DNA of 32,000 nt from an uncultured Acidimicrobiaceae bacterium (GTDB lineage: Bacteria > Actinomycetota > Acidimicrobiia > Acidimicrobiales > RAAP-2): assembly GCA_963778165.1 (NCBI GenBank), contig CAVZTE010000004.1, positions 249,660 through 281,659 on the forward strand, read 5' to 3'. Position 1 is the first letter of the stretch. Every line of letters starts with the position of its first letter. Made by a program: the position numbers. Shown one piece after another: positions 21,001 through 27,000 of the stretch.

Positions 21001-24000
21001 AAGCGCACCCCGTACTCGTTGGCGTCCACCCGGACCTGGTCGAATCCGTGTCGGTCTCGAGCCTGTATGAGCGGTACTTCGCCGGTCGAACCGACGGCTT
21101 CCGACCGTCGACCGGCGAGGATCTGCTGCTGGCCACGACCTGATCCCGCCACGACCTGATCCTGCGACGACCCTGACCGTGCCGAGCAGGCCAGAGGGCT
21201 TCAGTGCTCGGGGACAGGTTGGCCGAGCAGCCATCCGATGGCGTTGAGCCCGTCAGGGACGGTCCAGGCCCCACCGCCGGGGTCCTTCAGGTTCGACCGA
21301 CCCTCCGCATCCAAGAGGCCATGGAGGCGGCTCGGGATCCCGGAGATCTGGACCATGCCCCCGGCGATGAAGCGCTGGCGTTGGTCGGCATCCAGCAGGA
21401 CGAATCCGTCGGAGTGATCGACGTCGTAGGTGTAGGGCTTGTGGGTCTGCCAGTCGATTCCTGGCGGTGAGCCCTCAGGCACCCGTTGGTAGTAGATCCC
21501 GAAGTACTTCCACAGCCGGCCCAGCGTCTGGCTGGAGCCGGTCAGGAGCGGCCAACTCGAACCGGTCAATTTGGCAAACGCCATCATGCGGGCGGGCGAG
21601 TCCCGGCCCGGGTCCACCGTCACCTCGGCCAGTACCACCTTGTTGGCCAATCCGTCAGCGTCGATCGACTGCTGCATGGCCAACAGCGCCCCGGTGGTGA
21701 TGGGGCACTCCTCTTGACAGGAGGTGAGAAACGGCAAAATCACCACAATCCGGCCCCGGAACTGCCGGAGGGTGACGGTCCGACCGGTCTGGCTCTGGAG
21801 CGGCAGGTCGGCGATGGTCGATGAGACGGGGCGGTTGAGCGCCACGCCGATGGAAGCAGAAGGCGCGCCCGGGGGCCGAGGCACCCGGAGAGTCGATCAG
21901 CCTCCAACTCACCAGGCCCACCGCAACGACCAGACATACCAGAGGGACGATCAAAAGAGAGGGTCGGAGGGAGGAGATACGCGTACTTTAATGGTGGGCC
22001 TCATGGAGGAGAAATCGAGTTTCAAACCCGCCGCACAGGCAATGGACCTGATCAACGCCGGCGTGAAGCCCCAACCGCGAGGATGAACTGTGGCTCGTGA
22101 TCGACACTCGATGGGCCGGGACTTCTGGCTGTACTTCAGTGGTCAGTTGATCTCTCAGATCGGCAGTTCGTTCACCTTGTTCGCCCTACCGCTGCTGGTC
22201 TACAGCCTGACCCACTCCGCTACCAGCTTGGCTCTGACCACCGCGGCCGAGTTCGTTCCCTACCTGCTGTTCGGACTGGTGATCGGCGCCCTGGTGGACC
22301 GCCTTCCCCGCAAGGCCCTGATGCTGTTCAGCGATGTGGCCCGCGCCGCCGTGATCGTGATCCTCCCGTGCCTGGCCCTGGCTGGGGATCTCAACATCGG
22401 GGTCATCTACGCGGTGGCATTCGTGCAGTCGACCTTGGGCATCGTCTTCCAGTGCGGGGAGTTCGCGGCCATCCCCAGTCTGGTCAGGAGCGACGACCTG
22501 GTGGCCGCCAACGGCCGCATCATGGCCACCAACTCCGCCGGCAATGTCGTCGGGCCGATTCTGGCCGGAGCCTTGGTGGCGTTCATCTCGGTGTCCAATC
22601 TGTTGTTCTTCGACGCCTTCAGCTTTTTGGTCTCGGCCGCGGCCCTGGCCGTCATCCGCAAGAGCTTCGACGCCGCTCCCCGACCGGGGGCCGACGACCC
22701 GGACCAGCGCCCCGGCATCCTCGACGACGTGAGGGAAGGGCTGCGCTTCGTATGGTCGCATCCCGTCCTGCGGTCGATCTCCATCATGATGGCCCTCATC
22801 AATTTCGCATCGGCTACCGAAAACAGCCAACTGGTGCTCTTCGCCAAGCACGTGCTCCATGCCACCGACACCCAGACCGCACTGCTGTTCGCGGCAGGGG
22901 CGGCCGGCGTGGTGATCGTGGGACTCTGCGCGGCCAGCCTGCGACGACATCTGTCCTTTGCGGTATGTGCCCTCGGCGCGTTGGTCATCAGTGGGTTGGC
23001 GGTCACCGCCATGGCCATCGTGGGCCGCTACCCACCGGCCCTGCCGCTGTGGGCGGGGGCACAGGGCTTCGGCCTCCTGCTCAACATCAACACAGGGTCC
23101 CTGCGCCAGGCCATCGTCCCGAGCCACCTCTACGGACGGGTGATCAGCGTGGCCTCCGTGCTGGCCTGGTCCGCCATCCCGCTCGGTGCGCTGGTGGGAG
23201 CAGCCGCCATCCATCTCACCGGAAGCGTGGCCGACGTCTATGCCGCCAGTGGAGTGCTCACCGCTCTGATCGCCCTGGCCTTCGCCTTCAGCCCCATTCG
23301 GCATGGTGACCGGTACCTGGCCGAAGCCAAGGCCGACGCCGCCCGCCAGGAAGGCCTGGCCAGGGACGGCTGACCTGAGCTGCAGGCCAACAAGAAAGCC
23401 GTCAAGCACTGACCCCGGAGATGTCCGACGATGCCTCAGGACTTACCCGCTGTTGCCAACTGACCAGGTCGTCCGAGGGGAACGGAGCCAAGGCCTCGGC
23501 CGGCAGCGGGCGGCCGAAGAGGTACCCCTGGACCAGATGGCAGCCGAGAGACTGCAGCGTCAGCAGTTGTTCGGCGTCTCCACCCCTTCGGCGATGCAGG
23601 TCAGGCCCAGGGCCTCGGCCAGGGCGATGACCGCCTTCACGATGGCGGCGGACTCGTTGCTCCTCGGCCAGGCCGTCCACGAAGCCCTGGTCGATCTTGA
23701 GGCACTCCACCGGAAGCTGCTTGAGATAGCTCAGTGACGAGTAGCCGGTGCCGAAATCGTCGACCGAGATGTGCGCCCCCTGGTCGCGCAGGACCGGCCG
23801 AGGGCCCGGATGGCGGTCTCCGGGTCGCGCATCGGAGGCCCCTTCGGTGATCTCCAGCCAGATGTGGTCCGGGCTGACCCCGGTCCTCCTCGATGACCGT
23901 CGGCACACCGAGGGAAGGGAACTGTCGCTCGGCCAGCTGGCGGGGTGACACGTTGATCGAGACCGGTCGACCGGCCGGCTCGTGATCGGATGCCGCCCGG

Positions 24001-27000
24001 AGCCGGCACCACTCGACCGACTGCCGGCAGGCCTCCCGGAGGACCCAGCTCCCGATGGGCACGATCATGCCGCATGTCTTCGGCCAGGTCGATGAATTCG
24101 CCCGGGGCCAACAGGCCCCGGGTCGGATGCCGCCACCGGACCAGGGCTTCCAGCCGCCACCAGGGTCGGCGAGTGGAGATCGACGAACGGCTGGTAGTGC
24201 AGCTCGAACTCGCCGCGTGGAGATGGCCCGGTGGAGATCGTTGCCCACGCCGGAGCCGCCCGATGGACCAGATGTCCTTCTGCTCGTCTCGTAGATCTCG
24301 ATGCGGCCCGGCCCCGTCCTTGGCCCGGTACATGGCGGACGTCGGCGTGACGGAGCACCGTCGGGCGAGGTGTGCCCGGTACCGGACCAGGGCGATGCCG
24401 ACGCTGGCGAGACGAACTCTCGATGCTCGAGTGGTCAGGGGCAGGTCCAGGCCGCTGCAGCGGTTCGGCCGAACTCCAGGGCCGCTTCCTCGTCGGCATG
24501 GACTCGCACACCACCATGAACTCGTCGCCCCCGAACCGGGCCACGGAGGTCGCTGGGCCGGAGCGCCAGGTTGATCCGATGCGGCCACCCCTGCAGCACC
24601 CGATCGCCGCACGTCATGGCCGAGCCCGTCGTTGATCAGCTTGAAGTGGTCGAGGTCGAGGCATCGAAGGCCACCATCACGTTGCCGGCACTCCGGTCGA
24701 TGCGGTCGAGGGCGCTCTCGAGCCGGTCCATGAGGATCGTCCGGTTGGGGAGGTCGGTCAACGGGTCGTGGATGGCGGCGTGGGCCAGCCGATCTCGTTC
24801 ATCCTGCGCCGCTCGGTGATGTCCTCGATCTGGTCGATCCCGTACTTGGCCGAACCCCAGGCGTCGCGTACGCAACTGGCGCTCAGCGAGACCCACACCG
24901 CCTCGCCGTCGGCCCGCAGGTACCGCACGTCCTGTTGCAAGGTGGAGGCCTCGCCGCTGAAGACACGCCGGGTCCACAACGAGCTCTCGGGACGATCGTC
25001 GGGATGGGTCAGGTCCTCGATGGAGGCTCCGGTCAGTTCGTCCGGGCCGTACCCCAGGATCGACCCGAAGGCCGGATTGACCTGCACGATGATCTGGTCC
25101 GTGCCCACCAGGCAGATGCCCGCCGGGGCGCCCTCGAACGAGCCCCGGAATCGGGCCTCCGCTTCGATCAGGGCCGAGTCCACCAGCTCTTTGGCTGTGA
25201 AGACCCGGCCGATCACCTGGATGGTGAGGACCAGGCCGGCCAGGGCCAGGACGGCCAGGGCCTGGACCAGTGGTTTGGGTACCAGCGTGGGGACGATCCC
25301 GAGGGCGATACCGGCCTGGCCCAGGCCGACCATGATGACGCTCAACACGATGGCCGGCCTGGTGGCCGCCGCCCCCACCGAGCGCATGACGTCAGCCACC
25401 CCGAAGACCAGGCCCACCACCAGGGTGGGCCCCCAACCCACGGCGTAGATGATCACGGAGATTCCGGCCAACTCCAGACCCACCCGCATGTACAGCCGCC
25501 ACCCCGAAGGGGTGCCCGGCCACACCTCGGTGGCCAGAGCGGCCAGCACCGATGCCCCCACCAGCAGCAGGAACAGGACCCATACCGGCACATCGACGAT
25601 CAAGCCGTGGGATCGGAGCAGCCAGAACAGGGCCACCACGATGGGGACGGCCAAGGTCGCCGGATCCACCAGGTGCCCGATCACCCGAGAAGGAAACGAA
25701 GAAGAAGCCGCCGGTACGCCTGGACCCTCGCCGTCTGGTGCCACCCTTAGATATCGGCGCACCCATCTCGACGCTTTAGCGCCGTTGACCAGCCTCTCTT
25801 ACCCCCGTGCGGCCCAAGGGGCAGCTCAGTTCTGGTCTCCCGAGTGGGCCGGCTCATGGGTCTTGAGGAGCGGGCCGATGACCGGGATCTCGGTCACCGC
25901 TTCGGCCCGGGCGATGGCCACACTGCTCCGGGCCAGGGGGAGAAATGCCCCGGTCACCACATAGCGGGGATTCCACCGGGGGTCGTACTTCTGGTTGAAG
26001 TGCCAGAGGGACTCGATCTGCAGGGTGTCGCTGAACCTGTGGAGGACCGTTCGCTCCAGGTTGGTCCAAGGGCCCGAGCCGGTCTCGCCGGCCACCACCG
26101 CCCGCATGGTGGCGAAGTTGAGCCCCAGGCCGCGGAGCCCACGCTCCGCCATCCACTGGAGGGTCTCGATGATGACGAAGTCGGTCAGGCCGTTGGGTGC
26201 GTCGGGATCGTTGGACCGTCTCATCAGGTCCAGTGAGTAGCCGTCGACCTTGCTGGCCGGGATGTACTGGTTGAAGGCCATGGGCTGGCCGTCGGCATCG
26301 AAGCACACCACCAACAAGAGGCCTTGGTCGCGGGGGTCGAAGATCCGGCTCAAGGTCATCGAGTACCCGCGCTCGGCCTCGCCCTGTCGGGTCTCGGTCA
26401 TGAGCTCGAGGAGTTGGACCTTCAGCTGGTCCGACACCGCGTCCACCGAGTCGAAGCACTCCACGTGACAGCCCGACTTCTTGACCCGGTTGTAGGCGCC
26501 CCGGAGTGACTTCATCGACTTGCCGGCCAGGGTGAAGGTCGAGGCATCCACGATGGCCTCGTCACCGATGTAGTGGTCGACCAGTCCCGCCGCCCGGTAG
26601 ACCGGCAGCCACGACTGCGATGCGGCCAGCACTGTCGTCTGCCAATTGTTCGACTGGGCCAGGTCCATGACGTCCGACCACACCTCGGCCCGGTCGGCCG
26701 GCGGCCCGATGGGATCGGGCGACACCAGCATCACCCCGTTGATCACCGAGTAGGCCACCAGCGAGTCACCGGTGAAGAACCACGACTTGTCGTCGCGGAG
26801 GGCGAAGTAGTCGAGGGTGTCGCCACCGTACGCCTCGATGATGTCCAGCGCCCGGGCGAAGGCCTCTTCGCGGGCGGTGCCGGTCCGGCGGGACTCACGC
26901 CCCGGCAGGGACACCAACAGGAGGAGCAGCAGGACCACCACCACGACCAGGAGGAAGATCAGGTCGAAGTGGTCATTGTGGGCCTGCCAGAAGATGTCCC

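What the first reader, a model, noticed from the sequence alone, without database searches (positions are those of the whole stretch)
23402..24815. Indel storm: GGDEF-EAL catalytic half shattered by about 12-18 frameshifts while its motifs stay intact
**What is seen.** The first ~950 bp of the gene (TM plus PAS) read cleanly in one frame. From about 24815 downstream, the expected GGDEF-EAL sequence can be followed only by switching frames every 50-150 bp. My hand trace through all three minus frames gives roughly 15-18 switches in both directions.

**Why it is odd.** Within each fragment the hallmark motifs are preserved: HDPLTxLPNR, DxDHFKxIND, GGDEF, AMYRAKD, FELHYQP, EAL, EITE, DDFGTGYSSL and QGYLFGRP. 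Ordinary pseudogene decay accumulates far more substitutions than indels, so an indel-only pattern is unusual.

**Indel sites.** The four junctions I could resolve are single-C changes next to a C:
- CTC|C|GTG in 'SDL-VARFGGDEF'.
- GTC|C|GCC in 'HADV-AMYRAKD'.
- GGG|C|CGC in 'GAG-RIEIY'.
- A lost C in CGC(C)AG after 'IEDITER'.

**Possible explanations.**
- A very recent slippage-driven inactivation of one c-di-GMP enzyme.
- A local consensus or polishing artefact, for example reads from paralogous GGDEF-EAL genes or a low-coverage homopolymer-error region.
- Some targeted mutational process.
Basis: seen in the sequence. Interest (0 to 1): 0.65.

Follow-up and report, generated by a model that had tools for sequence, protein, structure and literature searches.

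The report
Local sequencing-error patch in signalling gene
A 1.2-kb stretch of an otherwise normal bacterial signalling-enzyme gene carries about 25-30 tiny insertions and deletions; it is most likely a badly resolved patch of a long-read metagenome assembly, not a biological event, though this cannot be proven without the reads.

Summary
The minus-strand gene 25762..23402 encodes a TM-PAS-GGDEF-EAL protein. Its first 971 bp read in one frame. Between 24791 and 23570 (1,222 bp) the ortholog can only be followed by changing frame 23 times.

All of these indels are private to the window. Six related Acidimicrobiaceae MAGs and one JGI protein carry intact orthologs of about 755-780 aa. The other roughly 8.8 kb aligned to the sister species holds only one in-frame 3-bp repeat change in this gene and a few differences near gene ends or between genes.

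The indels do not look natural:
- Insertions outnumber deletions 20:9.
- 16 of 22 single-base events have no identical neighbouring base, and only 2 lie in runs of 3 or more.
- One is a 5-nt non-templated insertion.
- Excess substitutions roughly equal the indels in number and are clumped.
- Codons 7 nt or more from an indel show a much weaker nonsynonymous excess than codons next to one.

The same signature occurs, scattered and about ten times sparser, in sister MAGs of a Nanopore-only Flye/Medaka catalogue.

Best explanation (about 0.85): a local, poorly polished or low-support long-read consensus patch. A real, very recent pseudogene or a localized hypermutation event remains possible (about 0.1). 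Read-level data would decide. Interest is low.

The parts
23402..25762 (-). Whole TM-PAS-GGDEF-EAL gene (putative bifunctional diguanylate cyclase / c-di-GMP phosphodiesterase). It is about 780 codons once frames are corrected.
   Evidence: The frameshift-aware alignment to the intact L002 ortholog spans 25762..23405 with 88.5% amino-acid identity. Pfam finds PAS, GGDEF and EAL on the stitched protein.
24792..25762 (-). Clean 5' part (about 6 TM helices plus PAS) in a single frame. Its only window-private indel is an in-frame CTT repeat unit at 25707.
   Evidence: dN/dS against L002 is 0.146. Window-derived and sister-derived substitutions are balanced at 17:12.
23570..24791 (-). The indel block: 1,222 bp covering the GGDEF domain and most of the EAL domain. 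It holds 23 frame-changing events and 24-29 private indel events, about 2-2.4 per 100 bp.
   Evidence: The GC3-phase model loses the coding phase only here in the whole window. Window-derived substitutions are spread evenly over codon positions at 19/20/15, against 4/2/17 on the sister lineage.
23402..23569 (-). Clean 3' tail that returns to the original reading frame and keeps the orthologous stop codon.
   Evidence: No window-private indel falls here in the 10-way alignment.
25826..28825 (-). Upstream neighbour used as a control: an intact 999-aa Metallophos plus LPG_synthase_C (MprF-like) gene.
   Evidence: There are no window-private indels against L001/L002 over its 3 kb.
22090..23373 (+). 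Downstream neighbour used as a control: an intact 427-aa MFS transporter.
   Evidence: There are no window-private indels in its coding sequence.

Best explanation
The gene is an ordinary TM-PAS-GGDEF-EAL c-di-GMP signalling gene of an uncultured Acidimicrobiaceae bacterium. The 'indel storm' is most likely a local assembly or consensus artefact. In this reading, 24791..23570 is about 1.2 kb of draft-quality long-read sequence with raw-read-like noise of roughly 2.4% indels plus 2-3% clumped base differences. It was not corrected by polishing, while the surrounding contig was.

**Shown:**
- The indels exist and are private to the window.
- They are confined to a block inside the gene.
- They have a non-biological spectrum that matches the scattered errors in sister long-read MAGs.
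- The divergence underneath still shows much of the purifying-selection pattern.

**Inferred:**
- The window comes from a long-read or hybrid metagenome assembly.
- The patch reflects low read support or failed polishing. Possible causes are a weakly supported graph path, reads that clip or fail to align so that the polisher copies the draft, or a long-read bridge in a hybrid assembly.
For: 1. **Private and local.** 29 window-private indels lie in 1,222 bp. In the rest of the roughly 10 kb aligned at about 91% identity to L001/L002, window-private events are one in-frame 3-bp repeat change plus a few near gene ends or between genes. The flanking genes are full length.
2. **Intact orthologs elsewhere.** L002, L003, L004, L005, L006 and L008, and the JGI protein P0017, are intact. 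None of the window's indels is shared in the 10-way alignment.
3. **The block ignores gene boundaries.** No indels fall in the 5' 971 bp or the 3' 168 bp of the same reading frame. A neutral pseudogene should collect them throughout.
4. **Spectrum.**
   - 20 insertions against 9 deletions.
   - 16 of 22 single-base events have no identical neighbour, and only 2 lie at runs of 3 or more.
   - There is a 5-nt non-templated insertion, ATGCC, at 24664.
5. **Same signature in sister MAGs at lower density.**
   - L001 has 15 insertions against 5 deletions, with 11 of 18 not in homopolymers, scattered over all genes.
   - L007 and L009 have 3 and 9 frameshifts in the ortholog, mostly +1. The GC3-phase model also shows same-strand frame switches in their flanks.
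   - L002-L009 belong to a Nanopore-only catalogue assembled with Flye --meta and one round of Medaka (PMC12313526).
6. **Substitutions.**
   - dN/dS in the block is 0.267 against 0.146 in the N-terminal part.
   - The nonsynonymous excess is strongest within 6 nt of indels: 30.8 nonsynonymous against 20.2 synonymous there, against 12.3 to 23.7 at more than 30 nt.
   - The window lineage has about 31 excess polarised substitutions. They are spread evenly over codon positions and clumped, so many are hidden indel pairs.
   - Excess substitutions to indels is therefore about 1:1. From my own knowledge of mutation-accumulation studies, not checked here, natural bacterial mutation gives about 10:1.
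7. **Precedent.** Flye assemblies show local spikes in error rate, and hybrid assemblies show clusters of errors (PMC8442456).
Against: - No reads, coverage or quality values are available, so the artefact is inferred and not demonstrated.
- The sequencing platform of the window itself is unknown. It is inferred only from the fact that its close relatives found in the genome collection are MFD long-read MAGs.
- The Trycycler paper reports that the Flye error spikes disappeared after Medaka polishing in high-depth isolates. Persistence therefore needs an extra assumption of low local read support.
- Nanopore raw reads are usually deletion-biased (my own knowledge), whereas this patch is insertion-biased. 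The sister MAGs show the same insertion bias, however.
- The start of the block, at residue 323 of the L002 ortholog, nearly coincides with the start of the GGDEF domain, at residue 329 of the stitched protein. I cannot explain this mechanistically.
Confidence: 0.85

Rival explanations
1. A real, very recent pseudogene. The GGDEF-EAL half was inactivated and has since collected small indels by ordinary mutation (slippage, replication errors), while the TM-PAS part remained under selection as a truncated protein.
For: - Indels are tolerated only in non-functional DNA, so clustering in a dead gene next to intact neighbours is expected in principle.
- Window-derived substitutions in the block are spread evenly over codon positions, as expected without selection.
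- The first frameshift, at 24791, leaves a 334-aa TM-PAS ORF.
Against: - About 29 indels come with only about 30 excess substitutions, many of which are misaligned indel pairs. Natural spectra give roughly ten substitutions per indel (my own knowledge), which would mean about 25% extra divergence. That is not seen.
- Insertions outnumber deletions 20:9, opposite to the deletional bias of bacterial pseudogenes (my own knowledge).
- Only 2 of 22 single-base events lie in runs of 3 or more.
- No frame-changing indels fall in the 5' 971 bp or the 3' 168 bp of the gene.
- No nonsense substitution appears in the corrected frame.
Confidence: 0.07
2. A real, single-event localized hypermutation. One repair-synthesis tract of about 1.2 kb was copied by a very low-fidelity polymerase (for example an NHEJ or translesion polymerase, or a reverse-transcription intermediate), leaving a burst of small non-templated insertions.
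For: - The block has sharp edges, uniform density and an insertion-biased, non-homopolymer spectrum.
- The divergence underneath still shows much of the purifying-selection pattern, so the event would be very recent.
Against: - No known bacterial polymerase or repair pathway makes indels at about 2% per base over a kilobase (my own knowledge).
- The same spectrum is seen scattered through sister assemblies, where it must be technical.
- Nothing in the surroundings points to a diversity-generating or targeting system. The neighbours are lysS, an mprF-like gene and an MFS transporter.
Confidence: 0.04
3. A functional recoded gene or 'cryptogene' whose frameshifts are corrected during expression by programmed frameshifting, transcriptional slippage or RNA editing.
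For: After frame correction every catalytic motif is present and the last segment returns to the original frame with the orthologous stop.
Against: - The frameshift sites are not conserved. Six relatives and P0017 encode the protein in one frame.
- The sites lack slippery or homopolymer contexts.
- 23 corrections in 1.2 kb has no bacterial precedent (my own knowledge).
- Returning to frame 0 has a 1-in-3 chance.
Confidence: 0.01

Closest known systems
Gene-fragmenting indel errors in long-read (Nanopore Flye/Medaka, or hybrid) assemblies, including local spikes or clusters of errors
   Same: - The errors are indel-dominated and pseudogenize a conserved gene.
- The insertion-biased, non-homopolymer single-base signature is the same as in sister MAGs of the Nanopore-only MFD-LR catalogue.
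- Local error spikes are documented for Flye, and error clusters for hybrid assemblies (PMC8442456).
   Different: - The density is very high (about 2.4 indels per 100 bp) and confined to one 1.2-kb patch in an otherwise clean contig.
- In the relatives the errors are scattered at about 0.2 per 100 bp.
- The cause of the local failure is not known.
PAS-GGDEF-EAL bifunctional c-di-GMP enzymes of Actinomycetota/Acidimicrobiia
   Same: - After frame correction the protein has a TM region, PAS, GGDEF with an RxxD site (RPSD) five residues upstream, and EAL with the EAL, EITE, DDFGTGYSSL and QGYLFGRP motifs.
- Synteny with intact orthologs is conserved: lysS, an mprF-like gene, this gene, then MFS.
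   Different: As written in the window, the coding sequence is not translatable beyond residue 334.
Natural bacterial pseudogenes (reductive evolution, for example in Mycobacterium leprae)
   Same: Multiple frameshifts in a gene with recognisable homology, and intact neighbours.
   Different: - The ratio of substitutions to indels is about 1:1.
- There is an insertion bias and no association with homopolymers.
- The block covers only part of the gene.
- The divergence underneath still shows much of the purifying-selection pattern.

Membership tests
PAS-GGDEF-EAL c-di-GMP enzyme (gene identity) | GGDEF domain (PF00990) with a GG[DE]EF motif | tested here: met
   On the stitched protein PF00990 scores E = 5e-39 and covers 1-159 of 161 profile positions. 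The motif reads VARFGGDEF. It is met only after frame correction.
PAS-GGDEF-EAL c-di-GMP enzyme (gene identity) | EAL domain (PF00563) with the EAL, DDFGTG and QGY motifs | tested here: met
   PF00563 scores E = 1e-70 and covers 2-236 of 236 profile positions. LEALVRW, EITE, DDFGTGYSSL and QGYLFGRP are all present.
PAS-GGDEF-EAL c-di-GMP enzyme (gene identity) | One continuous reading frame encoding the domains | tested here: not met
   There are 23 frame changes between 24791 and 23570. The longest in-frame piece from the start codon is 334 aa.
Long-read assembly or consensus error patch | Differences are private to this assembly and absent from all relatives | tested here: met
   The 10-way alignment shows every indel in the block is window-only, and six orthologs plus P0017 are intact. 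No same-species second copy was available.
Long-read assembly or consensus error patch | Indel-dominated error spectrum that matches known technical errors of the same kind of data | tested here: met
   The window block has 20 insertions against 9 deletions, with 16 of 22 single-base events not in homopolymers. L001's scattered private indels have 15 against 5, with 11 of 18 not in homopolymers. L007 and L009 frameshifts are mostly +1.
Long-read assembly or consensus error patch | Location is independent of selection, so the edges do not follow gene or function boundaries | tested here: met
   The block starts 971 bp into the ORF and ends 168 bp before the stop.
Long-read assembly or consensus error patch | Low or discordant read support at the patch | not testable with these tools
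   No reads or coverage are available, and the source record of the window is not disclosed.
Natural pseudogene decay | Substitutions greatly outnumber indels, and dN/dS is relaxed towards 1 across the dead region | tested here: not met
   There are about 31 excess polarised substitutions against about 29 indels. dN/dS is 0.267 overall, and the nonsynonymous excess is strongest within 6 nt of indels.
Natural pseudogene decay | Deletional bias and indels concentrated in homopolymers or short repeats | tested here: not met
   There are 20 insertions against 9 deletions, and 2 of 22 single-base events lie at runs of 3 or more.
Programmed frameshift or recoding | Frameshift sites conserved among orthologs and located at slippery motifs | tested here: not met
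   The sites are private to the window and mostly lack homopolymer or slippery contexts.

The most novel reading that the evidence does not exclude
The indels are really in the genome. A single, very recent event rewrote about 1.2 kb of this gene with a burst of mostly non-templated 1-2-nt insertions. One candidate is an extremely error-prone repair or reverse-transcription tract. This would be a kind of localized indel hypermutation not described in bacteria.
Probability: 0.05. Interest if true: 0.7.

Novelty: not a real feature. Interest (0 to 1): 0.1.

Why it matters
If the patch is an artefact, as is most likely, its value is practical. It shows that long-read MAG contigs that are otherwise clean can hold kilobase-sized patches of draft-quality sequence, and annotation pipelines will call these pseudogenes. 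It also shows that a three-way comparison with sister genomes (private indels, insertion-to-deletion ratio, homopolymer context, substitutions per indel, codon-position spread) can flag such patches without the reads.

If the indels were real, they would point to an undescribed localized indel-mutagenesis process. That is why checking the reads is worthwhile, although the prior is low.

Tried and rejected
- **Plasmid DNA search.** The region gave only short Burkholderia EAL-motif hits, which were uninformative.
- **Source record look-up.** Exact-protein look-ups of two window ORFs found nothing on record, so the platform of the window stays inferred.
- **Search for an independent same-species copy.**
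  - The N-terminal protein search found nothing closer than 91-92%.
  - The JGI metagenome scan found only 28-42% relatives.
  - The search with the stitched C-terminal half gave its best hit, P0017, at 84%. P0017 is a third sister lineage, 93% identical to the window's N-terminal part and 94% to L002. It is not the same species.
- **Mixing with the sister species as the cause.** Rejected, because the block is more diverged from L001/L002 than the flanks, not less.
- **Slippage.** Rejected on homopolymer context.
- **Shared or systematic frameshift sites between MAGs.** L007 and L009 have insertions 4 nt and 17 nt apart in two places, but they are not at the same positions or in the same contexts, and none coincides with a window site. 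I treated this as coincidence.
- **Window-wide frameshift noise.** Rejected, because the GC3-phase segmentation keeps one frame per gene everywhere except 23410-24663.

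
Full report
**What is there**

The window is GC-rich (61-71% per kb). On the minus strand, an ORF starting at 25762 reads cleanly for 334 codons and stops at 24758. A three-frame translation shows that recognisable GGDEF-EAL sequence continues to a stop at 23402, but it is spread over all three frames.

**Relatives**

- A protein search with the clean N-terminal part found only fragmentary close relatives.
- A scan of species-representative genomes found orthologs in uncultured Acidimicrobiaceae and Acidimicrobiales MAGs named MFD*.bin.*.
- L002 (MFD00082.bin.1.10) has an intact 801-codon open frame. L003, L004, L005, L006 and L008 are also intact.
- The window is collinear with L002 and L001 over 10.7 kb at about 91% identity. 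L001 and L002 differ from each other by only about 1-2% outside the last 2 kb. The window therefore represents a sister species.
- A JGI protein, P0017 (755 aa, intact), is 93% identical to the window's N-terminal part and 94% to L002. It is only 84% identical to the frame-corrected C-terminal half of the window.

**Counting the damage**

- A frameshift-aware protein-to-DNA alignment against the L002 protein covers 25762..23405 at 88.5% identity. It needs 23 frame-changing events (17 insertions, 6 deletions), all between 24789 and 23570. It also places three codon-sized indels in the block and one upstream at 25703.
- The three-way nucleotide alignment gives 29 window-private indel events in 24791..23575.
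- A ten-way alignment gives 24, all private to the window.
- Some clumps of apparent substitutions are really compensating indel pairs.
- The stitched protein has complete PAS, GGDEF and EAL Pfam domains.

**Locality**

- Outside the block, the window-private differences against L001/L002 are few. They are one in-frame CTT repeat unit at 25707, a few events in the short intergenic stretch just past the stop codon, one base near the start of the SCO1 gene, and further intergenic events.
- The neighbouring genes are full length with complete domains: class II lysyl-tRNA synthetase, a Metallophos plus LPG_synthase_C gene, an MFS transporter, SCO1, an ABC transporter, TetR, transaldolase and PGI.
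- A GC3-phase hidden-Markov segmentation of all 32 kb loses the coding phase only at 23410-24663.
- The block does not follow the gene. The 5' 971 bp and the 3' 168 bp of the same reading frame have no frame-changing indel.

**Spectrum**

- In the block, insertions outnumber deletions 20:9.
- 16 of 22 single-base events have no identical neighbouring base, and only two (both deletions in C runs) lie in runs of 3 or more.
- There is a 5-nt insertion, ATGCC, that is not a duplication of flanking sequence.

**Substitutions**

- Nucleotide divergence from L002 is 8-15% in the block, against mostly 4-10% in the flanking genes.
- Nei-Gojobori dN/dS is 0.146 in the N-terminal part and 0.267 in the block. 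The extra nonsynonymous changes are concentrated within 6 nt of indels.
- I polarised the differences with five intact outgroups. The window lineage has 54 derived changes in the block against 23 on the L002 lineage (p = 5e-4). In the N-terminal part the counts are 17 against 12.
- The window-derived changes in the block are spread evenly over codon positions (19/20/15) and are spatially clumped. The L002-derived changes are third-position biased (4/2/17).
- So ordinary selected divergence is overlaid by roughly 30 unfiltered changes and roughly 29 indels, a ratio near 1:1.

**Comparison with the sister assemblies**

- L001 carries 20 private indels scattered over the region aligned in all three sequences, upstream of 23410, and affecting all genes. 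There are 15 insertions and 5 deletions, and 11 of 18 single-base events are not in homopolymers.
- The orthologs in L007, L009 and L001 need 3, 9 and 7 frameshifts, mostly +1. The phase model also shows same-strand frame switches in their flanks.
- The MFD long-read catalogue is Nanopore-only. It was assembled with Flye --meta --nano-hq and polished with one round of Medaka, and its authors inspected it for Nanopore-associated errors (PMC12313526).
- The window block thus carries the technical signature of this kind of data at about ten times the density.
- Local error spikes in Flye assemblies and error clusters in hybrid assemblies are documented (PMC8442456).

**Interpretation**

The best explanation is a local patch of poorly supported or unpolished long-read consensus (confidence about 0.85).

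- A natural pseudogene would be expected to show many more substitutions than indels, a deletional bias, an association with homopolymers and damage throughout the gene. These expectations rest on general knowledge of bacterial mutation spectra and were not checked here. None of them is seen.
- A single-event hypermutation tract or an expression-level recoding system cannot be strictly excluded without reads. Neither has a precedent. Recoding is also contradicted by the lack of conservation of any frameshift site.

**What remains unexplained**

- Why this particular 1.2 kb, which nearly coincides with the GGDEF and EAL domains.
- Why the errors are insertion-biased.
- The platform of the window itself is inferred, not known.

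**Verdict**

It is most probably not a biological feature. Interest is low, and a read-level check would settle it.

Noticed in passing
L001 (ENA ERZ25039521 contig_5698), whole 13-kb locus: This sister assembly has about 20 private 1-nt indels, mostly non-homopolymer insertions, scattered over lysS, the mprF-like gene, the GGDEF-EAL gene and the MFS gene. Its gene calls are fragmented throughout, so it looks like a low-accuracy long-read contig.
   Followed up: yes
L007 6835-8256 and L009 6172-7707: The orthologs in two further MFD MAGs need 3 and 9 frameshifts, mostly +1. In two places the L007 and L009 insertions lie only 4 nt and 17 nt apart in the alignment, but they are not at identical positions. 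I treated this as coincidence.
   Followed up: partly
window 18390-21047: This 2.7-kb segment carries a TetR regulator (18489-19112, minus strand) and an ABC transporter ATPase and permease pair (19127-20946, plus strand). It lies between transaldolase and SCO1. In L001 and L002 it is replaced by about 1.4 kb that holds a methyltransferase gene in L001, so a cassette has been swapped between the sister species.
   Followed up: partly
window 1497-4892: This stretch has lower GC (about 0.61-0.63, against 0.65-0.70 elsewhere). The GC3-phase model finds no coding phase here, although ORFs of 300-365 aa are present. It may be foreign DNA or have a different codon usage.
   Followed up: no
window 25826-30849 (minus strand): A class II lysyl-tRNA synthetase gene with a roughly 230-aa N-terminal extension (28822-30849) overlaps by 4 bp a 999-aa gene that combines a weak Metallophos match with the MprF C-terminal lysyltransferase domain. 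From my own knowledge, this resembles mycobacterial LysX split into two genes, with an added phosphoesterase domain.
   Followed up: partly
window 25707: An in-frame CTT tandem-repeat expansion adds one extra Ser in the N-terminal tail. It is the only window-private indel in the clean part of the gene and looks like a genuine polymorphism.
   Followed up: partly
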